The notes under the pieces: generated by a model
What the model saw: only the letters and a program-made list of their open reading frames with translations
What the model was told of the DNA's origin: nothing
Databases searched by the model: none
Assembly (NCBI GenBank): GCA_039589315.1
Contig: JBDHHQ010000136.1
Span: 1-10,212 of the forward strand
Length of the DNA stretch: 10,212 nucleotides
Source: Gemmatimonadota bacterium
GTDB taxonomy: Bacteria; Gemmatimonadota; Gemmatimonadetes; Longimicrobiales; Gaopeijiaceae
Reading direction: 5' to 3'
Position numbers and translations under genes: made by a program
In this document: in pieces, positions 1 through 10,164 of the stretch
Layout of the letters: each line of letters begins with the position of its first letter
How positions within the stretch are numbered: the stretch's first letter is position 1

Positions 1-2
1 CG

Positions 3-134
3 GAGCCCGAGATCGTGCGGCGGCTGCCGAACGATCCCGCCAAGCTCCGGAGGTTCTTCCAGCGCTGGAGCCGGCAGGGCCAGATCCGGTCCTGCTATGA
101 GGCCAGCGGCGCCGATCCCATCGACGACTCATAG
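3..134 (+). pseudogene. Truncated IS110-family transposase, N-terminal fragment (start outside window)
   Basis: Frame from base 3 reads EPEIVRRLPNDPAKLRRFFQRWSRQGQIRSCYEASGADPIDDS*. The PND and CYEASG pattern resembles the IS110 DEDD N-terminal domain. Similarity ends after YEASGA and a TAG follows at 132-134. Confidence 0.7.
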
Positions 135-171: not shown

Positions 172-585
172 CTACAGATGGCCCTCGCTGTGACCCCGAA
201 GGCCTACCCGGATCGTTACGCGTCCAGACCCGTGATCGACCTCCAACGAGCCTGGTTTTGGCTCTCGGACGGGACCCAGCGTCGCGAGCGCTTCGCGATA
301 CACGTCTAGACTTTGCTCTGCCGGCTCCCCTGTTCTCCAGAGCCCGCCTCGTCGCAACACTCCCGACAGTGCTTGCTGGAACTCCGCGTCCGACGGAAGC
401 GGCAGTGACAACTCGGGCCACCCTTCCTCCGATTGAGCTAGGTACAACGTCGGCCAACCGTCGTCCGTCTTGACCGCTATCGGCTCGACACCTGGGTCGA
501 TCAAGCGGAGGAAACGACCGAAACTCTGCACCGCCACATATACCTCATCACCCACCGTCAGCAGCGATCTGGTGAGAAATCCCAT
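172..585 (-). CDS. Hypothetical cassette protein (137 aa)
   Basis: ATG 46 nt downstream of the GTTAGAC core of site 632-791, GGGGG RBS-like motif, plausible protein composition; no family recognised. Confidence 0.65.
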   Translation of the reverse strand: MGFLTRSLLTVGDEVYVAVQSFGRFLRLIDPGVEPIAVKTDDGWPTLYLAQSEEGWPELSLPLPSDAEFQQALSGVLRRGGLWRTGEPAEQSLDVYREALATLGPVREPKPGSLEVDHGSGRVTIRVGLRGHSEGHL

Positions 586-631: not shown

Positions 632-791
632 GTCTAACGCGCTCCAGGCTTGCGACGTCGCGCCGCGGGCGAGGCGCACCTACGAAACCCCGACAGGCCA
701 CCATTCGCACCACGCCTCGACCGCACGCTTGGCGCGATGTGCCGAAGGCCCGAGGAGCCGAAGGCGACGAGGCGCAAGTCATTCGTTATCT
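632..791 (-). repeat. attC-like site 1 (long family, 160 bp)
   Basis: Plus strand GTCTAAC...GCTTGCG-A-CGTCGC...GCGACG-AGG-CGCAAGTC...GTTATCT; closely similar to the sites at 5096, 9103 and 10003. Confidence 0.88.
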
Positions 792-832
792 GACTTGCGC
801 TTCCAGCACGTCCACGGCTTCCCTGGCGCCTA

Positions 833-1162
833 TCATGAGTAGTCCGAGGGATCTACCTCCTCGTACGCCAACAGCACATTCTGTAATCGCTCGAACAAGC
901 GATCCAATCGCCGGCGCAACCGCTGGTCCTCCGTGTGATTCGCCTCAAACGCTACGTATCCCATCAGCTCATCCACGTCGTCCAAGGAGAGATTCACACA
1001 CAGCTTTCCGGAAGAGACGGTCGCACGCTCGAGCGGCTCTGTGAACTCGGGATCAGCAAAGGTGTGCTCGACGATCAACCCCCGTTCCTCCAGCGTGAAC
1101 GATACAGGGACTGGTTCGCCGAACCTGATCCGCTTGACCCTTCGCGACCGTTCATGGATCAT
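833..1162 (-). CDS. Hypothetical protein (109 aa), second gene of a two-gene cassette
   Basis: ATGA overlap with the upstream gene at 1159-1162; helical C-terminus with LDDVDELMGYVAFEANH; stop 41 nt before the next site. Confidence 0.8.
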   Translation of the reverse strand: MIHERSRRVKRIRFGEPVPVSFTLEERGLIVEHTFADPEFTEPLERATVSSGKLCVNLSLDDVDELMGYVAFEANHTEDQRLRRRLDRLFERLQNVLLAYEEVDPSDYS

Positions 1163-1497
1163 CGCTCAGCCTCGAAACTCGACTCGTCGCCTAGGTGAAA
1201 GAAGATCCTTCCCTTCAGCGTCCAGCCTTCAAGTCTCACAAGGCCCCTGCCTCCACACGGCTCTCCATCATCGAGGCCTGCCCACGTGAACCGAGCCAAC
1301 GATCCCTCCGCACCGCCCTCGACTCGGTAGTCCAACTCTCCCTGCACTGCCAGGAACTGAAACCCACCCAGTCCCTCCGGCTCGAACGCAATGAACGGTG
1401 GGCCTAACAGATCCAGTTCCTCGGAGCCCCAGAACTCCATATCGGTGATTCTCCAGACACCCAAGAACGGGTTCTCAGGACCGGACAAGTCATCCAA
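1159..1497 (-). CDS. Conserved-looking hypothetical protein (112 aa), probably beta-rich
   Basis: TTG start 46 nt from the core; Gly/aromatic pattern GVWRITDM...FTWAGLDDGEP..GRG...GRIFFHLGDESSFEAER that I recall from a widespread hypothetical family (unverified). Confidence 0.8.
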   Translation of the reverse strand: MDDLSGPENPFLGVWRITDMEFWGSEELDLLGPPFIAFEPEGLGGFQFLAVQGELDYRVEGGAEGSLARFTWAGLDDGEPCGGRGLVRLEGWTLKGRIFFHLGDESSFEAER

Positions 1498-1543
1498 TGG
1501 TCGTCATCGTGCAACCGATCCCCCCAACGGTCGTGTGCATGTC

Positions 1544-1631
1544 AAATAACCAATTGGCCACTGGCGACGCCCGCCGCAGGGGGTGTTCGCGGAGGGCCGA
1601 AGGCTCGCAGCCGCCAGTGGACCCGTTAGCT
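1544..1631 (-). repeat. attC-like site 2 (short, 88 bp)
   Basis: Plus strand AAATAAC...CCACTGGCG(1558-1566)...CGCCAGTGG(1612-1620)...GTTAGCT; both ends match the partner ends of the neighbouring cassettes. Confidence 0.8.
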
Positions 1632-1801
1632 GACGTCGTCGCCCGCAAAGCAGGCCGGGATAGACCCTAACGGCTACGCAGTTCCGCTGCGCACCAGCCT
1701 CCACCCGCAGCGCGAGCTGCTACACGGGCGCTCCGGGTCCTCCACCCGACCGCTAGCTAGGTTGTGCGGGGCTCGAAGGGTCTGGTCGGAGAAGACCCTT
1801 C

Positions 1802-4800
1802 TCAGCGCTGCCGGATGGCCCTCGCCTCCGCCGCAAGCTCCTCCGGGTCGAACAGTCGACCGCCCTTGATCACGCGCCAGATGCTTTGTGTGTTCCGTAT
1901 GTCCTCCAGCGGGTCAGCGTCGAGCAAGACGATGTCAGCCAGCTTGCCGACCGTCAGACTGCCCAGGTCACCGTCCACGCCCAGCGCCTCCGCCGCGCCC
2001 AGGGTCGCGATCTTCAGCACTTCGGCGTTCTCAATGCCCGCCTCGACGAAGTGCTCCAGCTCCCAGTGCAGCGTGGCGCCACCGAGCCCCTGTTGGCCGA
2101 AGCCGAATGGACGCCCATCGGTCCCGGCGAGAAGTCTCACCCCTCCCTCGTAGGCTTCGCGAACCGAAGCAAGTTGACCGAGCCACCATCCCCGCAACGC
2201 GTTCGTGGGTCGAAACGACAATGCGTTCGTCCCGGCGTCCACCGCAGACGGCGACGCGAACGCCTTCAGCAACTCGGCATCGAGACGTTCGGGCGCCTCT
2301 CTGAGCAGCAGCGCCCAACCACCCGCCACACCGAGATTGGGATCCCAGCGCACGTCAGCCGCTGACATCAACCCGAGGATGTCCTCGTAGACTCGCTCGC
2401 CCGAGGACGTATGCTCGAGAGATGCGTAGCCCACGGTGACGTGCTTCACGATTTCCTCGGCGCTCATGCCGTGACCTGCCACGGGGATCCGGACGCGCCT
2501 CGCCTCTTCTGCAACAGCGCGAGCGAGCCACCACGGCCTCGTGTCGAGCGCGTAGTCGAGCTGGTAGGTCTTGATCCAGTGCGCTCCGCGACTCTTCCAC
2601 TCCGCGACGTACTTCTTCGCCTCATCCGCGTCGTGGAGCTGGACTTCCTCGTCTTCCGGGCTCGGTCGGGCGCCCATGAAGAGCCCTCCGGCGTAGAAGT
2701 AGCGAGGCTCGGGAGCCGCCGTCAGGTCGCCGCGATCGGCCAGCAACTCCAACCAACGGATGGCGTTCCCGACCTCCCGGACGGAGGTGATCCCGTAGGC
2801 AAGAAGGCCCTCCCCGGTGGTGCGGGTGGAGACGTGAACGTGCATGTCGAAGAGACCGGGGATCGCGAACCGTCCCCCACCGTCGATGATGCTCGCGCCT
2901 TCGGGCGCCAACGTTCTCTGCGGGCCCAGGCGAGCGATCTTGCCGCCCCGAACGAGTAGGTCCACGGGCGCTCCGAACGCCCCCGCATTCAGGTCCAGGA
3001 GTCGCACGTTCCGAAGCACTGTGGCATTCGGTGTACCCGTGCCGGGTTGGACGTCCAGCCGGATTTCGGTCGGCTCGCCCTCCGGCAAACTCCGCCGCCA
3101 CACGCGATCGCCGATGGAGTAGACAACTGCATGACCATCGGGTGTAAGCGAGAACCTGTCGCCTCCTGTGCGGGTGAGCCGACGCACATCCTCCTCTGTG
3201 ATGGGGGCGTCCTTCATTCGGGCGGTCCAGATCTCGGTGCCACGCCGAAAGACGAGCCACTCGCCGTCCGCAGATACTTGACCGTCGCTCAAGTGGCGGT
3301 CGAGATCCGTCAGGGCCTCGGTACTCGCCGAGTCGTTCACGCGGACCCGCCACAGCGAGCCCGTACCGCTGCTGGCAGCCGTGTAGTAGACCCATTCGCC
3401 GTCTGCGGAGTAATGGGGCCGAGCCCTCCACAGGTTGCGCTCTGCTGTGCTCGCGAGCCGGTGGATGTCCCTGGTGGCCAGTTCTAACCGGTCGACGCCT
3501 CTACCCGCCGGGTTCCAGAAGACCAGATGGCTGCCATCCGGACTCCACGCGGGCTGTCCGATCCGTTGGTCTCCAGTCAGTACCGTCTCGCTCCGGCCGG
3601 TCGAAAGATCCAGCACGCGCAGCTCATGCCGCCCGGACCGGGTGGCTGCGTACGCGACGTGCTGGCCGTCCGGGCCCACGGCGGGGCTGTGAGCAATCCA
3701 CTTCCAATCAGTCAGGCGCCGAGCTGCGCCCCCCCGATCTTCCTGCAGCCACAACTCGCCGGCACGTACGAAAACGATAGCGCCATCGGGTGAGATGACG
3801 GGCGTGCCGGTCGCCCTGGGTCCGACTGACTCGGCCGGCCCAGCTACCCGCCGTGGGGGAGGCACCACCGACGGATGGACCATCAGGCGCACCCGGGCCC
3901 GGAAGGGAATCGGCTTTCGTACGGCATCGGTCAGGCGCCAAAGACGCCCCCCGGTGCCCACAAAGAAACTCCGGCCGTCGGGGCTCACGGCCGTGTGGGA
4001 CGGTGGTGGCATGCCCCCCGGATACGTCCCATCAACGACAAACGTGACGAGGCGCTCGGTGCTTCCGTCGAGCGGCGAGGAGATCCAGGCCAGTTCCGAC
4101 AGGCCCTCGAAGCTCTGTCTGATCAAACGACGATGGTAGAACAGACGCTGGCCGTTGGCGGGAGCGTACACATCGGCCGCCTCGCCGTCGAGCGTCGCAA
4201 CCGTGTCGGCCACGCCGTCGTCGCCGAGCGTGACGATGGGGGTCACCCATCGCGGCGCCCGCCACATCCCGTCAGGCGCCCAGGCGGGGCGGCCGTCGGG
4301 CATGTAGAACCACGCGCGCACCAAGGCAGTATCGGGAACGACGGTTCTCGCCTTCCCCTCGGGCACCGTGATCTCCTTGAGCACGGAGGGCACGTATTGA
4401 CCCATTCGGCCGCGGTACGCCTGAATCACGAACGAGCGGTACGCCAGGCGCCTTCCATCCGGGCTCCAGACCGGCTCGCCCGCCCACGGCTCCCTGGTCA
4501 GCTGCCATATCGAGTCCGTGGCGACATCCAGGATGAACACGTTGCCCTCGCCACCATCCCGGTCCGACACGAACGCGATCGACCTCCCATCCGGGGAGTA
4601 TGCCGGCTCGGTATCCAGATAGGGTCCGAAGGTGAGCTGTACGGCCTCCCCTCCTTCCGCGGGCACCCGAAACAGGTGCCCCAACATCGTGAAGACGAGC
4701 GTCTCACCATCCTGGGAGACCGTAACGTGTGGGGCGGTCACTTCGGTGGTCTCGAACTCGATCGTGCGGAGGGTATCAGGGGCTTGCAGCGCAATCCCGT

Positions 4801-4864
4801 CGCCGACGTCGTACCCAAACGTCACGATGGCGGCCAAGGCCGCCCGCTTCAGCAGCCGTTGCAT
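1802..4864 (-). CDS. Probably secreted amidohydrolase-family protein with N-terminal TolB-like (PD40/WD40-like) beta-propeller repeats (1020 aa)
   Basis: GGGAG RBS; signal-peptide-like N-terminus; repeated (W/Y)SPDG motifs; C-terminal metal-dependent hydrolase motifs PGLFDMHVH, GH, SLEH, AGTD and G.LADIVLLDADPL.DI.NT. Confidence 0.93.
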   Translation of the reverse strand: MQRLLKRAALAAIVTFGYDVGDGIALQAPDTLRTIEFETTEVTAPHVTVSQDGETLVFTMLGHLFRVPAEGGEAVQLTFGPYLDTEPAYSPDGRSIAFVSDRDGGEGNVFILDVATDSIWQLTREPWAGEPVWSPDGRRLAYRSFVIQAYRGRMGQYVPSVLKEITVPEGKARTVVPDTALVRAWFYMPDGRPAWAPDGMWRAPRWVTPIVTLGDDGVADTVATLDGEAADVYAPANGQRLFYHRRLIRQSFEGLSELAWISSPLDGSTERLVTFVVDGTYPGGMPPPSHTAVSPDGRSFFVGTGGRLWRLTDAVRKPIPFRARVRLMVHPSVVPPPRRVAGPAESVGPRATGTPVISPDGAIVFVRAGELWLQEDRGGAARRLTDWKWIAHSPAVGPDGQHVAYAATRSGRHELRVLDLSTGRSETVLTGDQRIGQPAWSPDGSHLVFWNPAGRGVDRLELATRDIHRLASTAERNLWRARPHYSADGEWVYYTAASSGTGSLWRVRVNDSASTEALTDLDRHLSDGQVSADGEWLVFRRGTEIWTARMKDAPITEEDVRRLTRTGGDRFSLTPDGHAVVYSIGDRVWRRSLPEGEPTEIRLDVQPGTGTPNATVLRNVRLLDLNAGAFGAPVDLLVRGGKIARLGPQRTLAPEGASIIDGGGRFAIPGLFDMHVHVSTRTTGEGLLAYGITSVREVGNAIRWLELLADRGDLTAAPEPRYFYAGGLFMGARPSPEDEEVQLHDADEAKKYVAEWKSRGAHWIKTYQLDYALDTRPWWLARAVAEEARRVRIPVAGHGMSAEEIVKHVTVGYASLEHTSSGERVYEDILGLMSAADVRWDPNLGVAGGWALLLREAPERLDAELLKAFASPSAVDAGTNALSFRPTNALRGWWLGQLASVREAYEGGVRLLAGTDGRPFGFGQQGLGGATLHWELEHFVEAGIENAEVLKIATLGAAEALGVDGDLGSLTVGKLADIVLLDADPLEDIRNTQSIWRVIKGGRLFDPEELAAEARAIRQR

Positions 4865-5095
4865 GATGGTCTCCCTCGCGGATCCAGGGGGACGCCGCTG
4901 TGCCCGACCGAGTTGGAGGGTGCCTCCTTAGCGCCTCTACTCAACGTTGCTGCGATACCCGGCGCCTGGTCGAACGGATCGGTAGCAGTCGTCGATAGAG
5001 CCTCAAAGCACCTGCCCCAGCAAAGACTACGTAACAACGGTGCTTCACAGCAGCCTCCTGTATCGGGCAAGCTACGGTGATGTTGAGACCATGTC

Positions 5096-5262
5096 AGCTA
5101 ACGCCAAACCGGCTAGAGCGACGTCGCGCCGCAGGCGAGGCGCGCCTATGGAACCCCGCGAGGCCACCCCTGGAACCCACGCCTCGACTGCACGCTTGGC
5201 GCGATGTGCCGTAGGCCCGAGGAGCCCCACAGGGCGACGAAGCGCTAGACGAACCGTTAGGC
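5096..5262 (-). repeat. attC-like site 3 (long family, 167 bp)
   Basis: Plus strand AGCTAAC GCCAAACC...GCG-A-CGTCGC...GCGACG-AAG-CGCTAGACGAACC GTTAGGC. Confidence 0.88.
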
Positions 5263-5315
5263 GAGACTGGCTGGTGGCACTACACAGCCGAAGCCACGCG
5301 GATTCCATCCGCCCC

Positions 5316-5540
5316 CTATCGGTGCTTCAAGAACTCCTCGGACGTCAACCCGATGTCCTTGATGATCTGTCGCAGCAGGATCGGTGAGATGTCTCGACCC
5401 GGGTGGAATGGCACGGTCGTACCGCGTCCGTCCGGGTGGCGAAACTGCTTGTGGGAACCTCTCTGGCGAACCTCCACGAACCCCAGACGCTCAAGAATGG
5501 CTGCCACCTCACGAGGCTTGAGGACCGGGAGACGCGCCAT
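5316..5540 (-). CDS. hicA: Type II toxin, HicA family mRNA interferase (74 aa)
   Basis: [31 protein letters not shown] contains the HicA GSH motif and TVPxH; starts 3 nt after the hicB stop. Confidence 0.95.
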
Positions 5541-5543
5541 CGA

Positions 5544-5753
5544 CTAGGCGACGTCCACCACCTGGATCCCAACGAACTCTCCCTCGAGCTCTGGATCGCC
5601 ATCCTCGAGCAGCATCGCTACCACCTCACGGAGGTTCTCTTGCAGCTCATCGAGGGTTTCACCTTGTGAGTGAGCGCCCGGGAAACCGGGGACGTAGCCC
5701 ACGTACAGCCCGGTGTCACGATCCCGCTCGACCACTGCACTGTAGGACTTCAT
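5544..5753 (-). CDS. hicB: Type II antitoxin, HicB family, short form (69 aa)
   Basis: MKSYSAVVERDRDTGLYVGYVPGFPGAHSQGETLDELQENLREVV is a typical HicB N-domain; GAGGTG RBS before ATG at 5753. The longer ORF call to 5918 runs into the attC site. Confidence 0.93.
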   Translation of the reverse strand: MKSYSAVVERDRDTGLYVGYVPGFPGAHSQGETLDELQENLREVVAMLLEDGDPELEGEFVGIQVVDVA

Positions 5754-5793
5754 GTTCACCTCGCCGGGACGCCTGGATGGCCGCTGTCCAACA

Positions 5794-5823
5794 ACGATAA
5801 CCTGACCACGGTGTCCATCGGAA
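5794..5823 (-). promoter_or_regulatory. Possible sigma70-type promoter for hicBA
   Basis: Minus strand TTCCGA-N18-TATCGT in the 111-nt leader. TA cassettes usually carry their own promoter, but the match is weak. Confidence 0.25.
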
Positions 5824-5864
5824 GCAGCAGATGGGTCGCCGCACAGCACCGACTCGCCAGTTTC

Positions 5865-6037
5865 GCTTAACGCCTGACAAACTGCCGACGTCGCGGTAGG
5901 CCGAGCCCAAGGCGCCACCTACTGATCGCAGCCGTTAGGCCCTGCACGAAACCACGCCGCCCGGGCTCGGCCGTTAAGCCGCGATGTGCCACAGGCCCGA
6001 GGAGCGAAAGCGACGAGGCGGCAGTTGTGCGTTATCC
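5865..6037 (-). repeat. attC-like site 4 (173 bp, mosaic relative of the long family)
   Basis: Plus strand GCTTAAC...AACTGCCG-A-CGTCGC...GCGACG-AGG-CGGCAGTT...GTTATCC; internal 10-bp perfect stem 5899-5908/5963-5972. Confidence 0.85.
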
Positions 6038-6048
6038 GAAGCTCCAAT

Positions 6049-6558
6049 CTATCCCGGTGGCCACACCACTTCACCAAGCCGCTCGTCCGGCTCCAGGAGA
6101 ACCACTGCCTTCTCGGCCAGGAACCTCGCCGTGGTCGACCTGGGCCTACGGAGGTAGCGCCGAATCGCGACTGCGGGGTCTGTATCTGGAGCGCATTTGA
6201 TCGCCCTTCCCTGGAGGTCAACCCGGCGACCGATGAAGCTGGGCTTCGTGACCTCCGAACGCCCGAACTTCGGATCCCCAAAGTCGACTTGCCGCATCCG
6301 CTTTGCGTACCAAACGCGCGCTGGGTGGTGGGCGTAGAATGTGTACAGATCGAAGTCGTTGATTCCTGTCACGCCGTCGATGTAGTGCGATGCACCACCC
6401 TGACAGAGTGCGCTACCCAAGACGCGACTCTCGTACAACTCGGCCCAATCCGGGTGTTTGCGGAAGAACTCTTCCCGGTCCGACCGAACGAGATCGCGAA
6501 GACGTTCAAGATCTTCACGCTCGATCGGGAGCAGTGATCGCTTTGCCGGGTCCTTCAT
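6049..6558 (-). CDS. Hypothetical protein with nucleotidyltransferase-like (Pol-beta fold) motif (169 aa)
   Basis: Start MKDPAKRS 26 nt after the core and stop 11 nt before the next site. LCQGG-x12-DFDL plus a later RVDL fits hG[GS]x9-13Dh[DE]h with a third acidic residue. Confidence 0.75.
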   Translation of the reverse strand: MKDPAKRSLLPIEREDLERLRDLVRSDREEFFRKHPDWAELYESRVLGSALCQGGASHYIDGVTGINDFDLYTFYAHHPARVWYAKRMRQVDFGDPKFGRSEVTKPSFIGRRVDLQGRAIKCAPDTDPAVAIRRYLRRPRSTTARFLAEKAVVLLEPDERLGEVVWPPG

Positions 6559-6584
6559 GCAGTTCTCACGCTCCCGGGACTCTC

Positions 6585-6682
6585 GTCTAACGGTACCGGG
6601 GTTGGCGACCCTCGCGCAAAGCGAGGGTGCTATAGGCCCGGAGCGAGCCCAAGCGAGCGGAGGCGCCAACCTGGCGTTATCG
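6585..6682 (-). repeat. attC-like site 5 (short, 98 bp)
   Basis: Plus strand GTCTAAC...GGTTGGCG-A-CC...GG-AGG-CGCCAACC...GTTATCG, with internal hairpin ACCCTCGC-GCAAA-GCGAGGGT. Confidence 0.82.
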
Positions 6683-6917
6683 GATCGTGCACCCGGTCGA
6701 GTCACCGAGACGGGTACGCTTGTCAGGCAACTTCCGGTCGCAGGGGTAGCCTCCAGTACGGCGCCCCCCGTTTACCCGCCATGCCTTCGGGCGACTGCTT
6801 ACGGTTGCCGAGCGAACGCAACCGAGAAACCGGCGACCGCGTGGCCATATCCCGTCTCCTGCCCATGCCGTACGTTCGGTATTGCATGGCGCCCCTACGG
6901 TTACCCGGCCGAGCGCA

Positions 6918-8624
6918 TCATGGCTTGGCATCCGCGATGCCGTTACCGGCATTCCGCTCCCATGCCTCTCGAACCTCCTCGAACATGGCCCGGAACGGCG
7001 GGTCGTCCCGGTATTGGGTGAGCCACGGGTCGTGCGTCAGCCACGGGTAGTTCCGAAAACCGCCGGCCACCATGTGGCGAAGCCATTCCCGCGTCTGCTC
7101 TCGGAGGCCAGCCAAAGCGTAGATCTGGGTCGTGTAGAAGCACAACTGCAGATCCCGAGCCACCTTGGCGCGAAAGCTCTCGGTCATGACCCCATGCATC
7201 CGCTCCGGGGCGTCCTCCAACGCCGCCCTCAGCAAGGGGGCTACGGAGAGGAACGGAACGGGGGAGTCGGATGCGAACTCTCTCCGCAGGATGGCCAACG
7301 CATCTTCCCCCCGCCCGACCATCGCCAGGGCGTGGGCGTAGAAGAAGCTCTCTGCCGAGCCTTCGGGGGAGCCTCGGTACGACACCTCCATGTCTTCCAG
7401 CCCTCCTTTGAGGTCACCCCCGACCTGTCGCGCGAGGCCAAGGAGCGACCGGGAGAGCGGATTGAGCGGGTCCACCTCCACGAGACGGGTGGCCGCAGCC
7501 ATCATCTCCTCGTTGCGGCCCGCCAAGGAGAGGGCGATGGCCCACCAGGTCAGGGTGTGGGGGTCGTCAGGCTTCACCGCGAGCGACCGCTCCAAGTGGT
7601 GTAGGGAGCGGTCGACGTCCTGAAGGCCCTCCTGGAAGAGAAAGCCCAGGACCATGTGGGCCTCGGGATTGTCCGGATCGAGTTTCAAAGCCCGGCGCGC
7701 GTACTCCTCGGCCAGAGCGACGTAGTCGCGATCGTCGGCGCCGATGTTGGAGAACTGCGAATACACATACCCGATACCGGCCAGAACGACCGCGTTCTCT
7801 CCGATGCGAGCGTGAGCCTGCTCCAGATGTTCCAGAGCGTGTTCGAGCGCCTCCGGGGTCCATTTGAGGGAGGCCTCACGGGCCTTGAGGTAGGACTCGT
7901 AGGCTCTTATGTCGTCCATCGGACGGGCGGCGAGTCGCCGCGCCTCCTCCGGCCGCAGGTGGAGCTCGAGCGTCCGGACGATGGAGCGCGCCACCTCCTC
8001 CTGAACGCCGAACACATCGCTCAGCGCCCCATCGTATCGTTCCGACCAGAGGTGCTCATCGGTTTCGGTACGGATCAGCTGCGCCGTGACTCGAAGGGCA
8101 TCCCCTGCCTTTCGGACACTGCCTTCCAGCACATAAGCGACGCCCAGCTCCGCGCCGATGGCCTGGGTCCCCTTGCCGGCACGCTTGAACACCGTAGCGG
8201 AGTTGCGTGACGTGACGCGGAGGTCTCGAACCCCGCAGAGGCTCGCCGTGATCTCCTCCGTGAGGCCATCGGCGAAGTAGGCGTCGGACGGATCGGGAGA
8301 GATGTTGTCGAAAGGGAGGACGACGATGGACGCCCTGTGGTCCGACGAGCGGTCCTCATCGGTCCAGGGCACCCCCGGCCGGGGTGCGGCCTGTCCGCCC
8401 GACGACGTCTCCTCCGGGCGGAGTTCGTAGGCCCAGGCCAGTACGAGAGCGACCGGCAGCCCAAGGAGCAGCACGATCGCGACGGCCCGAGATGCCACGA
8501 CCGGAAGCCCGGCAAGCTCGAAGAGGTACTGGGCGCCCTCGGCCACGGCGTAGCCCACGACGATGTACACGGCGCCGACCTGGTAAACCTTCCGGCGCTT
8601 CAGCTCGCGGGTAAAGGCCTTCAT
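6918..8624 (-). CDS. Membrane-anchored TolB-like (FlgO-like) domain plus TPR-repeat protein (about 568 aa; alternative start 8651)
   Basis: N-terminal ELKRRKVY followed by two hydrophobic segments; SIVVLPFDNISPDPSDAYFADGLTEE...YVLEGSVRKAGD.LRVTAQLI...HLWSERYD signature; TPR-like helices. No kinase or cyclase domain. Confidence 0.9.
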   Translation of the reverse strand: MKAFTRELKRRKVYQVGAVYIVVGYAVAEGAQYLFELAGLPVVASRAVAIVLLLGLPVALVLAWAYELRPEETSSGGQAAPRPGVPWTDEDRSSDHRASIVVLPFDNISPDPSDAYFADGLTEEITASLCGVRDLRVTSRNSATVFKRAGKGTQAIGAELGVAYVLEGSVRKAGDALRVTAQLIRTETDEHLWSERYDGALSDVFGVQEEVARSIVRTLELHLRPEEARRLAARPMDDIRAYESYLKAREASLKWTPEALEHALEHLEQAHARIGENAVVLAGIGYVYSQFSNIGADDRDYVALAEEYARRALKLDPDNPEAHMVLGFLFQEGLQDVDRSLHHLERSLAVKPDDPHTLTWWAIALSLAGRNEEMMAAATRLVEVDPLNPLSRSLLGLARQVGGDLKGGLEDMEVSYRGSPEGSAESFFYAHALAMVGRGEDALAILRREFASDSPVPFLSVAPLLRAALEDAPERMHGVMTESFRAKVARDLQLCFYTTQIYALAGLREQTREWLRHMVAGGFRNYPWLTHDPWLTQYRDDPPFRAMFEEVREAWERNAGNGIADAKP

Positions 8625-9102
8625 CCGTGCAAACGTCGATGACTTAGGCATGCATGAGAGTGCGGTCCTCGACCGACTCCGTCCACCCTCGCCCGTGGAG
8701 CGAGCGGTGAATGAGCACGAGTGGGCATCCTTGCCGGCGCGAGCTCTCACGGACTGCAGGACGTTACTGGGCCCTCCGGATGCGTCTCACTCTCGGGATC
8801 CTTCAGACCATCCGTAGGAATGTTGGCTAACTCGTTTCTTAGCCGCAGCCTGAGCCCACTCCCGCGCGGATTCGGCTGCCTTCGAGCGCAGCTTGAGCCG
8901 TGACCCGTGGCGGAGCCAAAACACCTGCGTTTCCGGGGGGCGACCGGTGAATGCGCTCCTGCCGCCAACGGGATTCGGCTGCATACGGCGGCTGGCTGAT
9001 CCCGCGACCTCGCGAACGAGGTCCAAGCTGCCACATCCCAGGCGGAGTCGCATGGGAGGATCCATGCCCACGGTTGGGCGAAGCCGCCTAAAGGTGCTTG
9101 TC

Positions 9103-9265
9103 CGATAACGCCAAACCGGCTGGCGACGTCGCGCCGCAGGCGAGGCGCACTTACGAAACCCCGATAGGCCACCTACGGAACGCACAACCTCGGCTGCACG
9201 CTCGGCGCGATGTGCCGCAGGCCCGAGGAGCGAACAGCGACGAGGCGCTAGACGAATCGTTATCC
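9103..9265 (-). repeat. attC-like site 6 (long family, 163 bp)
   Basis: Plus strand CGATAAC GCCAAACC GGCTGGCG-A-CGTCGC...GCGACG-AGG-CGCTAGAC GAATC GTTATCC. Confidence 0.9.
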
Positions 9266-9316
9266 GAACTGCGACACCACGCGTTCACGATTGCCGGGCC
9301 GACACTTGCGAGACGC

Positions 9317-9979
9317 TCAGATTTCCACCCATTGGCTGAACGTTCGTGCATCGCCCGGGAGCTTGAAGTGCCGGACGCATTCGTTGCGAAGCAACTGCGG
9401 CTCCAGGGGCGCGGCTGCGAACCTGTTGTGAAAGAAGTCAAGCTTCAGGCCGCCCTCATCCTCAGTGAGTATGGCGACGGCACTCAGCGACGTGTTCATC
9501 GACTCGGTCGCCGTCTTATCACGGCCGAACACCGTTGCTCGATGTCTGGGCGGCTGTGCTGGGTCCTCCGACACCGCTAGTAAGTGGGTCTCGAACCCAT
9601 ACATCCCAACCAGGACGAAGTAAGGATTCGTGTGGGCCGCTACGTACGACCTGTTCACAAGAAGGAGAATCCCCGGGACTTCCCCATCAGTCAGCTCCTT
9701 GAGTTGCGGGACCGCCTTCTTGATCTTCCGCCGTATTCGATGTCCGGGGCTGGTGCCTATCGAACCAACTTGGCCTCGCTCGAAGGCAGCTTCTGCCTCC
9801 CGCTCATCCGGGTTGTTCTCGATCTCCTTGACTTCGACAACTACCCGCTGCGCCCCGAGCTCGATCTGGTAGTCGGGAGAACGCCGCTCACCCTGAACGA
9901 TTTTGGCAAACGGAATAGACAGCTCCCCACATGCGCGTTCGAACAGTTCCTCTGATACGGTCTTGTCTTGTTCAGGCAC
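9317..9979 (-). CDS. PD-(D/E)XK nuclease-like protein (220 aa)
   Basis: GTG start 23 nt after the core; SEELF...SPDYQI...VVVEVKEI matches the E...PD...ExK catalytic arrangement of restriction-endonuclease-like folds. Confidence 0.8.
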   Translation of the reverse strand: MPEQDKTVSEELFERACGELSIPFAKIVQGERRSPDYQIELGAQRVVVEVKEIENNPDEREAEAAFERGQVGSIGTSPGHRIRRKIKKAVPQLKELTDGEVPGILLLVNRSYVAAHTNPYFVLVGMYGFETHLLAVSEDPAQPPRHRATVFGRDKTATESMNTSLSAVAILTEDEGGLKLDFFHNRFAAAPLEPQLLRNECVRHFKLPGDARTFSQWVEI

Positions 9980-10002
9980 GGCTCTCTCGCTGACCGCTGT
10001 TC

Positions 10003-10164
10003 GGATAACGCCAAACTGGCTAACGACGTCGCGCCGCAGGCGAGGCGCACCTACGAAACCCCGTCAGGCCACCTCTGGAACCCACGCCTCGACTGCACGC
10101 TTGGCGCGATGTGCCGCAGGCCCGAGGAGCGATCAGCGACGAGGCGCTAGACGAATCGTTATCT
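10003..10164 (-). repeat. attC-like site 7 (long family, 162 bp)
   Basis: Plus strand GGATAAC GCCAAACT...CG-A-CGTCGC...GCGACG-AGG-CGCTAGACGAATC GTTATCT. Confidence 0.9.

What the first reader, a model, noticed from the sequence alone, without database searches (positions are those of the whole stretch)
632..10164. Cassette array built on a non-canonical attC architecture, possibly served by a divergent integron recombinase
Seen: on the plus strand all seven sites read AAC, then 16 nt (18 in site 3) ending in CG, then A and an inner stem; on the return arm a 3-nt AGG (AAG in site 3, AGC in site 2) lies opposite that A, followed by 12-13 nt starting CG, then GTT. The outer stem sequence covaries between sites (CTTGCG/CGCAAG, CCACTGGCG/CGCCAGTGG, AACTGCCG/CGGCAGTT, GGTTGGCG/CGCCAACC), so structure rather than sequence is conserved. 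Established: classical attC sites have about 5 and 6 nt spacers and one extrahelical base inside L''. Here the spacer loop is more asymmetric (about 7-8 vs 4-5 nt), I see no single bulge in the L box, and the extra bases lie further in. Several cores are GTTAT rather than GTTRRRY. Inference: a distinct class of folded single-strand recombination site recognised by a divergent IntI-like enzyme, which standard attC models may miss.
Basis: partly seen in the sequence, partly recalled or inferred. Interest (0 to 1): 0.85.

Follow-up and report, generated by a model that had tools for sequence, protein, structure and literature searches.

The report
Junction-shaped integron sites, insertion-less recombinase
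This is a real row of swappable gene cassettes whose docking sites fold into branched DNA junctions instead of carrying the flipped-out bases of textbook integrons, and such rows are headed by a recombinase that lacks the integron-defining insertion, which points to a second way of building an integron.

Summary
The seven sites are real cassette boundaries (Gemmatimonadota-type MAG, whole contig C136). Arm lengths, covarying stems and the missing L-box bulge are confirmed. The conserved fold is a branched junction 12-13 nt from GTT: outer stem, a long arm, and a side hairpin with tandem G·A mispairs that can form on one strand only (7 of 7 here, 99 of 113 in kin, 8 of 252 canonical sites). No recombinase lies on this contig. 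The genome has two candidates: an ordinary IntI (C97), and a tyrosine recombinase without the I2 insertion and with a HARP-like N-terminal domain (C248), joined by a contig overlap to two sites of this family. In other genomes 113 of 117 sites behind the I2-less enzyme are bulge-free; 252 of 261 behind IntI carry the bulge. A proxy canonical attC model scores the window sites at most 17 bits (held-out canonical 36-73). The scan found this enzyme-array pairing before on other DNA; the junction/G·A fold is added here. I found no paper on it. No biochemistry exists.

The parts
632..791 (-). attC-like site 1 (last complete site of the array). Plus strand = bottom strand. Long arm helix 655-740; mini-hairpin plus G·A side hairpin 741-772; inferred crossover 637|638
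   Evidence: 41.8 bits in the model built from other genomes' sites, 12.2 bits in the canonical proxy
833..1497 (-). cassette 1: two overlapping ORFs (1159-1497, 112 aa; 833-1162, 109 aa), no Pfam/NCBIfam/PADLOC family
1544..1631 (-). site 2, short three-way form: arm helix 1567-1586, 2-nt linker and G·A side hairpin 1587-1611; crossover 1549|1550. Near-identical outer stem to sites behind the I2-less recombinase of G448
   Evidence: 22.2 bits
1802..4864 (-). cassette 2: 1020-aa PD40 beta-propeller + amidohydrolase protein; cassette ends complement over 10 of 10 nt
5096..5262 (-). site 3 (2 extra nt in the 5' arm): arm helix 5121-5207, junction side 5208-5242; crossover 5101|5102
   Evidence: weakest model score, 11.1 bits
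5316..5753 (-). cassette 3: HicB (5544-5753) - HicA (5316-5540) toxin-antitoxin pair; near-identical pieces lie in contigs of other public runs
5865..6037 (-). site 4: arm helix 5888-5987, junction side 5988-6018; crossover 5870|5871
   Evidence: 32.1 bits
6049..6558 (-). cassette 4: 169-aa ORF, no family
6585..6682 (-). site 5: perfect 8-bp arm helix 6608-6628, mini-hairpin and GGA/GA side hairpin 6629-6663; crossover 6590|6591
   Evidence: 51.9 bits, 16.6 bits canonical proxy
6918..8750 (-). cassette 5: up to 610-aa TPR-repeat protein (start uncertain); a homologue lies in the G495 array
9103..9265 (-). site 6: arm helix 9126-9213, junction side 9214-9245; crossover 9108|9109
   Evidence: 30.7 bits
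9317..9979 (-). cassette 6: 220-aa ORF, no family; cassette ends complement over 11 nt
10003..10164 (-). site 7: arm helix 10026-10112, junction side 10113-10144; crossover 10008|10009. Its cassette is cut by the contig end, so the array goes on to the right
   Evidence: 32.3 bits

Best explanation
The contig is the distal part of a cassette array of a second, integron-like system. Shown by sequence comparison: each cassette runs from the G|TT of one site to the G of the next, genes lie on the minus strand, the site downstream of a gene travels with it, and the sites fold on the plus (bottom) strand into R box - unpaired spacer - bulge-free L stem - branched junction (long arm, here also a 3-bp mini-hairpin, and a side hairpin with tandem G·A mispairs). 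Shown by association: such arrays are headed by a tyrosine recombinase with intact R-K-H-R-H-Y residues, no I2 insertion and an N-terminal HARP-like domain on a flexible linker, followed by an attI-like site; this genome has that gene on C248. Inferred: the enzyme recombines the folded bottom strand with the double-stranded attI-like site by one strand exchange and replicative resolution, as IntI does; the G·A hairpin, which becomes T·C mismatches on the other strand, marks the strand and the L end in place of the extrahelical bases; the HARP-like domain reads the junction in place of the I2 helix.
For: Cassette ends complement (29 of 36; kin 4.8 of 6 against 3.0 within a site, n=100 and 117). 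Duplicated cassettes with unlike upstream neighbours keep the downstream site and switch at GTT (G622, G398). Covariation of outer stem, arm helix and side hairpin, 0 of 500 shuffles. G·A side hairpin 7 of 7, 99 of 113, against 8 of 252 canonical and 65 of 565 shuffled; T·C form 0 of 113. Enzyme-site match: 113 of 117 against 4 of 261 bulge-free; G346 has both enzymes, each with its own site type (8 of 9; 8 of 10). Blind test: of 20 regions chosen by site hits alone, 7 hold a recombinase motif, 6 measurable, all I2-less. Among 60 kin, sites in 13 of 20 with the enzyme and 9 of 40 without; 5 of 14 with IntI and 17 of 46 without. In this genome C248 overlaps C211, which holds two such sites, one 70-72% like window sites 1, 6, 7. 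I2 missing: VchIntIA aligns in two pieces; K-to-H spacing 61-62 against 102-105. HARP-like: Pfam HARP in 6 of 19 members, best E 6e-4; SMARCAL1 HARP top PDB hit, E 0.064; T4 UvsW N-domain Z 5.1, rmsd 2.6 over 55 residues.
Against: No recombinase and no assembly link on this contig; the genome also has an intact IntI (343 bits, cut-off 265) whose own array is not assembled. Site types mix: a canonical site next to a junction-type remnant on C171 and among junction sites in G001. G031 and G036 have junction sites and IntI but no I2-less enzyme found. G023 sites have the junction and also a bulge at the canonical position. Six of 20 I2-less loci had no site downstream. ViennaRNA gives almost no strand preference (bottom minus top -4.2 to +1.5 kcal/mol); the G·A pairing is read from sequence symmetry and general knowledge. 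All HARP scores are weak. IntI1 still integrates an EHB-less VCR at only about 6-fold lower rate (PMC2727003, passages).
Confidence: 0.72

Rival explanations
1. The array belongs to the genome's ordinary but relaxed IntI (C97), whose extrahelical-base pockets are degenerate; the I2-less enzyme is a bystander or a helper.
For: C97 IntI passes TIGR02249 and has Y210 to D and H240/H241 to R/S relative to VchIntIA (contact residues named in PMC3053210, section 0 part 1). Mixed arrays exist (C171, G001). Two kin have junction sites with IntI only.
Against: The closest relatives of the C97 IntI with the same Y-to-D change head canonical arrays (G016 7 of 7; G346, G353, G406). Only 4 of 261 sites behind IntI are bulge-free. 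No association of junction sites with IntI across 60 kin (36% against 37%). The two sites physically linked to a recombinase in this genome are linked to C248.
Confidence: 0.13
2. Same enzyme, but the sites are used as double-stranded Xer/Cre-type sites (two core boxes are read, both strands exchanged); the folding is a relic or serves another purpose such as cruciform extrusion or RNA structure.
For: The enzyme is as close to archaeal XerA as to IntI by profile and fold and lacks the domain that blocks the second exchange in IntI (PMC4792948, passages).
Against: Sequence next to the crossover is not shared between sites, while pairing between arms 70-150 nt apart covaries; the G·A pattern is strand-specific; there is no second box at dif-like spacing beside the crossover (what the sequence shows). 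No Rfam match.
Confidence: 0.1
3. One reading: an unbranched stem with a 1x3 internal loop whose extra bases act as shifted extrahelical bases.
For: A 5-bp inner stem is possible in sites 1, 3, 4, 6, 7 and is the lower-energy constrained fold in site 6.
Against: Absent in site 2, 3 of 5 pairs in site 5, and in 110 of 113 related sites.
Confidence: 0.05

Closest known systems
Sedentary chromosomal integrons (IntI + attI + attC; VchIntIA/VCR, PDB 2a3v; IntI1/attC aadA7), in particular those with intI co-oriented with the array
   Same: AAC/GTT core, unpaired central spacer, L stem, promoterless genes upstream of their site, crossover at G|TT of R', attI-like site after the recombinase gene, toxin-antitoxin cassette; SAM_4 + catalytic domain; VchIntIA is the top Foldseek hit.
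   Different: No single extrahelical base in L'' and no second one; branch point right after the L stem; five of seven sites are 160-173 nt, above the 57-141 nt quoted for attC (PMC5027507, passages); enzyme lacks I2 and carries a HARP-like domain.
Canonical attC sites with a hairpin just after L'' (e.g. gcu9, aadAX, IMP-2, catB6 rows of the IntegronFinder attC_4 seed alignment)
   Same: By eye these rows carry a short TC-rich self-complementary stretch after L'', i.e. a possible side hairpin; 8 of 252 canonical Gemmatimonadota sites also score a G·A hairpin.
   Different: They keep the 8/7-nt L boxes with the bulge and are served by IntI; there the hairpin is occasional, here it is near-universal.
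'Integron-like' subgroup of simple tyrosine recombinases (Smyshlyaev 2021, PMC8138268)
   Same: [quoted passage not shown]
   Different: The passages read call the insertion essential for integron function and give no arrays, sites or extra domain for insertion-less members.
XerC/D acting on the folded single-stranded attP of CTXphi
   Same: I2-less tyrosine recombinase on a folded single strand with replicative resolution (PMC5027507 and PMC4792948, passages; CTXphi detail recalled).
   Different: Host Xer and dif, one phage site; here a dedicated gene, GTT cores and tens of shuffled cassettes. The genome's XerD/XerC-like proteins form a separate branch.
HARP domain of SMARCAL1 / T4 UvsW substrate-recognition domain
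   Same: Weak sequence and fold matches for residues about 20-85.
   Different: Fused to a recombinase, not a helicase; fork/junction binding by HARP is recalled, the paper was not held.

Membership tests
Integron cassette array | Tandem genes in one orientation, each followed by an imperfect palindrome with AAC...GTT ends | tested here: met
   8 ORFs in 6 complete cassettes, all minus strand, 7 sites
Integron cassette array | Cassettes are units cut at G|TT of R', their two ends complementary, and are gained, lost or reordered | tested here: met
   window and kin; duplicates in kin switch context at GTT; HicAB cassette and site bodies in other contexts. Not shown for this very array by reads of its own sample
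Canonical attC | Single extrahelical base in L'' (position 16) and a second one 6-8 nt further | tested here: not met
   0 of 7 on the gene strand; definition from PMC2727003 and PMC5027507 passages
Canonical attC | Scores in the standard covariance model (IntegronFinder attC_4) | tested here: inconclusive
   attC_4 could not be run. A proxy from 59 canonical Gemmatimonadota sites gave 9.8-16.6 bits for 4 of 7 sites, none for 3, against 36-73 bits for 7 held-out canonical sites; attC_4 is broader and may score them higher
Canonical attC | Unpaired central spacer of about 5-6 nt per arm (up to 10 in HattCI) | tested here: met
   unpaired part about 4-8 against 2-5 nt; range in PMC7370490 passages; same-phylum canonical sites reach 8-9 nt
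Canonical attC | Recombines as folded bottom strand, replicative resolution | not testable with these tools
   inferred from covariation and strand asymmetry
Integron integrase (IntI), C248 protein | IntI-specific I2 insertion in the catalytic domain | tested here: not met
   TIGR02249 224 bits, below 265, model positions 177-234 unmatched; two-piece alignment to 2a3v
Integron integrase (IntI), C248 protein | Tyrosine recombinase with SAM_4 domain and R-K-H-R-H-Y | tested here: met
Integron integrase (IntI), C97 protein | I2 insertion and TIGR02249 above cut-off | tested here: met
   343 bits; its link to this array is not shown
Integron platform | attI site beside the recombinase gene, first cassette starting at its GTT | tested here: met
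   purine-rich, non-palindromic GTTA box about 170-760 nt after the stop, matching the first cassette's R'', in 9 of the 14 arrays by my reading; in the other 5 the top candidate was a missed attC; C248:108-123 here. For the window's contig itself: not present
Integron platform | Pc promoter and SOS control | not tested
   no call
HARP domain | Pfam PF07443 above its cut-off / HARP fold | tested here: inconclusive
   6 of 19 members at E<=1, best 6e-4, none for the C248 member; beta-beta-alpha-beta-beta-alpha at pLDDT 85-94; UvsW N-domain Z 5.1
XerC/XerD/XerA | Above the curated cut-off of a Xer model; groups with Xer | tested here: not met
   below all cut-offs; separate from the genome's own Xer pair, though the deep forks are weak

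The most novel reading that the evidence does not exclude
A second, parallel integron chemistry: an I2-less recombinase uses an appended HARP-like domain to read a three- or four-way DNA junction, built with sheared G·A pairs, as the strand and orientation mark of a folded single-stranded site. It would show that single-strand cassette recombination does not need the I2 helix or extrahelical bases, offer a living intermediate for the I2/EHB chicken-and-egg problem, and mean that many arrays are invisible to, or filed as integrase-less by, current tools.
Probability: 0.5. Interest if true: 0.88.

Novelty: new variant of a known kind. Interest (0 to 1): 0.75.

Why it matters
The field defines integron integrases by the I2 insertion and attC sites by their extrahelical bases, and IntegronFinder finds both by those marks (PMC4889954 and bioRxiv 2022.02.06.479319, passages). 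Here large, shuffled arrays go with an enzyme and a site that lack both marks; the enzyme was found in 100 of 300 genomes of the family. Escudero 2016 (PMC4792948, passages) calls the joint origin of I2 and EHB a chicken-and-egg paradox awaiting intermediates: this system makes that testable with standard assays. It also gives a candidate owner for some integrase-less arrays, a large pool of unannotated cassettes, and a new structure-specific recombinase for engineering.

Tried and rejected
Rfam at E<=1: no match. First assumed the C97 IntI was the partner because of its altered base pockets; dropped when relatives with the same change proved to head canonical arrays. A narrow DNA pattern found nothing in 60 kin (gap range too tight). 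Viral contigs: no relative of the C248 enzyme. ESM Atlas on the N-terminal domain: unnamed clusters at 0.88-0.89 only. Single-sequence fold was poor (pLDDT 44); fold searches with the good model were filled by the recombinase domain. First site classifier called shifted-bulge canonical sites 'new'; replaced by a like-for-like score. The detector needs TAAC...GTT[AG] and good pairing and missed window sites 6 and 7, so all array counts are lower bounds. The I2-less integrase beside a canonical array in G010 is not a counter-example I could use: it has no HARP-like part, occurs in 7 copies, precedes an IS91-like transposase (label recalled from its motif) and sits behind an intI. PADLOC: only a weak HicA-like hit. 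Public runs held at most 7% of the words; uncovered cassettes in them prove nothing and the run habitats are not used. No contig end links C136 to any other. Nine literature searches gave no description of arrays with I2-less or HARP-fused enzymes or of junction-type sites; subscription journals, bioRxiv supplements and the appendix of PMC8138268 were not seen.
Full report
Setting. The window is the whole of contig C136 of a 6.67-Mb, 288-contig MAG. The three named records that hold a relative of the genome's IntI are Gemmatimonadota MAGs, so I treat the genome as of that phylum (inference). Eight ORFs between the sites lie on the minus strand: two unknown ORFs, a PD40/amidohydrolase protein, HicB-HicA, an unknown ORF, a TPR protein and another unknown ORF. 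In integron terms minus is the top strand and plus the bottom strand.

The observation. None has a single bulge in the L box when read on the gene strand; site 4, and more weakly site 5, can be given a bulge if read on the opposite strand, but then with a 2-nt spacer. The segments between sites behave as cassettes: the six nucleotides beyond the core at the two ends of each segment match at 29 of 36 positions against a mean of 3.3 of 6 for other pairings; 22 of 5040 permutations do as well. The spacer asymmetry and the GTTAT cores are not distinctive.

The fold. That stem is possible in five sites, but the same bases pair with a segment further in at 6.5-8 of 8 positions in all seven. What then lies between that long arm and the outer stem is, in six sites, a 3-bp mini-hairpin followed by a hairpin whose stem alternates Watson-Crick pairs with opposed GA/GA or GGA/GGA steps; site 2 has the latter hairpin only. 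AGG is the foot of this hairpin. The result is a four-way (site 2: three-way) junction 12-13 nt from the GTT. A score that credits tandem G·A found such a hairpin in 7 of 7 window sites, 99 of 113 related sites, 8 of 252 canonical sites and 65 of 565 shuffles; the T·C mirror, which would mean G·A on the other strand, was found in 0 of 113 (and as a second-best option in 1 of 7 here). The arms continue to pair past the L stem in 3 of 113 related sites but 215 of 252 canonical ones. On a MAFFT alignment of 44 related sites, 20 of 26 pairs of the junction structure show double-sided changes, above all 500 shuffles and all slid controls (the sequences are related and the structure was read from this alignment, so this overstates). 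That tandem G·A steps form sheared pairs in DNA is general knowledge; ViennaRNA shows little strand preference.

The enzymes. The genome has 10 tyrosine-recombinase matches, none on C136. One, on C97, is an IntI above the TIGR02249 cut-off, with changes at three residues that contact extrahelical bases in VchIntIA; a candidate attI follows it and the contig ends 180 nt later. I first took it as the partner. Earlier notes of this scan pointed to I2-less, HARP-fused enzymes in Gemmatimonadota, and C248 encodes one: 405 aa, SAM_4 and catalytic domains, all catalytic residues, no I2. C248 overlaps C211 by 114 nt, the overlap length typical of this assembly, each end having one partner. The overlap begins at the G of a GTTA box that follows a purine-rich stretch like the attI-like sites of relatives, and whose next bases match the R'' of the first site on C211 at 8 of 9. 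C211 holds two junction-type sites, one of the window's own sub-family. More sites or remnants of this sub-family lie on C37, C23 and C171; single canonical sites lie on C2, C73, C154 and C171.

Which enzyme goes with which site. Relatives of the C248 protein were found in 100 of 300 genomes of the family. I fetched 20 of them chosen for long contigs and, as control, 20 IntI loci chosen likewise from 116 other genomes with a match. Fourteen I2-less loci had sites downstream (11 with four or more); two contigs ended within about 500 nt; four had none in about 18 kb. Of 117 sites, 113 were bulge-free, 2 bulged, 2 tied. Nineteen IntI loci had sites: 252 of 261 bulged, 4 bulge-free, 5 tied. G346 carries both systems, each with its own type. 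A model built only from 44 sites of other genomes scores six window sites at 22-52 bits and site 3 at 11, and canonical sites at 14 or less. A model from 59 canonical sites scores seven held-out canonical sites at 36-73 bits and four window sites at 9.8-16.6, the level of wrong-strand matches; three were not reported. As a blind test I searched 60 kin with the junction model (22 positive), fetched 20 regions by site hits alone and looked for recombinases: 7 regions had one; the 6 that could be measured were all I2-less, four of them in another family; one was a fragment. In G023 the enzyme points away from its array. At genome level, junction sites were found in 13 of 20 kin with an I2-less match and 9 of 40 without, and in 5 of 14 with IntI and 17 of 46 without (kin are not independent, the 20 include two or three IS-type matches, and the tallies include the unpublished G037 and G056). 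In a tree of 45 proteins the 18 IntIs form one branch (100/100); the I2-less proteins lie outside it and their deep forks are weak. Among 80 metagenome loci, several AT-rich ones with I2-less enzymes are followed by long bulge-free sites (for example L141, L177); I did not test those for the junction.

Polarity and mobility. In the G622 and G398 arrays, near-identical cassettes occur behind unlike upstream sites (site identity 0.19-0.55) but keep their downstream site (0.78-0.97), and the sequences part at the GTTA of R' (27 duplicate pairs among 91 cassettes, 21 of them from one repeated family). This is canonical polarity. In four public contig sets (three studies), the HicAB cassette occurs at 98-100% identity in short contigs, and bodies like sites 4 and 7 occur with other flanks.

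Against this reading. The window's contig is not linked to either enzyme. Site types mix in C171 and in G001, the closest genome, so one enzyme or both accept the other type at times; IntI1 is known to integrate an EHB-less site at only about six-fold lower rate, though it cannot excise between two such sites (PMC2727003, passages). G031 and G036 have junction sites and IntI with no I2-less gene found. G023 sites combine the junction with a bulge at the canonical position. A side hairpin after L'' also seems present in a few rows of the IntegronFinder seed (by eye). The HARP assignment rests on weak hits.

Mechanism. Most likely the enzyme works like IntI: four subunits, cleavage at G|TT of the folded bottom strand and of a double-stranded attI-like site, one exchange, replicative resolution. 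IntI tells the strands and the R and L ends apart by binding extrahelical bases with I2 and the beta-4,5 strands (PMC3053210 section 0 part 1; PMC4792948 passages). Here both are absent, and two things are present instead: a junction that only one strand can complete, at about the place of the second extrahelical base, and a HARP-like domain on a disordered linker of about 45 residues. That the one reads the other is my inference (about even odds).

Literature. Seen: PMC2727003, PMC5027507, PMC4792948, PMC4889954, PMC7370490, PMC8618304, PMC8138268 and bioRxiv 2022.02.06.479319 as passages; PMC3053210 part 1 of 6; PMC8352920 parts 1-2 of 5; supplement 7 of PMC4889954, part 1 of 2. None of what I saw describes arrays with I2-less enzymes; PMC8138268 notes that the insertion is not fully conserved in its integron-like subgroup. 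Nine searches found no such description. The scan itself reported the enzyme-array pairing before on other genomes; a word search of its notes for the junction and G·A hairpin returned nothing.

Verdict. It works like an integron; it is not a canonical attC/IntI system, since both defining marks were tested and not met. New variant of a known kind, interest 0.75.

Noticed in passing
G000:C248/C211 junction (L002:1-114): The 114-nt contig overlap starts exactly at the G of the attI-like GTTA box, as if the assembly graph branched at the crossover (the first cassette in a second context). About 107 such overlaps exist in this assembly, so it may be chance.
   Followed up: partly
window 1-133: Short open frame ending the contig's left side with a motif like the start of an IS110-family transposase (label recalled; the Pfam check failed on a frame slip).
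   Followed up: no
window 197-222: A stretch 73% like the 3' arm of the sites with a GTTA box, without a clear partner arm: perhaps a decayed eighth site.
   Followed up: no
window 9317-9979: The 220-aa cassette protein has a PD...(D/E)xK-like motif suggesting a nuclease (recalled motif; no Pfam, NCBIfam or PADLOC match).
   Followed up: partly
L001:385-1353 and L027, L029, L033, L035, L042: A branch of IntIs in this family has lost the tyrosine and both histidines that hold extrahelical bases in VchIntIA, yet those with assembled arrays keep single-bulge sites; in canonical sites of this phylum the first bulge is mostly C on the bottom strand (203 of 233).
   Followed up: partly
L235:1188-2678 and L245:12508-12634 (G023): Hybrid sites: junction-type body plus one extra base at the canonical bulge position, beside a divergently oriented I2-less recombinase; a possible intermediate form.
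   Followed up: partly
G000:C37:37500-38750: An attI-like box, two cassettes and a truncated second site with no recombinase gene upstream.
   Followed up: partly
G000:C211 end / C131 start: The last cassette of the C248-C211 array is interrupted by what looks like an IS630-type element (label recalled).
   Followed up: no
L099:2821-19447 (G622): One roughly 590-nt cassette family is present in seven or more diverged copies in one array.
   Followed up: partly
L141, L148, L150, L156, L158, L177: AT-rich metagenome loci with related I2-less recombinases and long bulge-free AAC...GTT hairpins downstream; the system probably extends beyond this phylum.
   Followed up: partly
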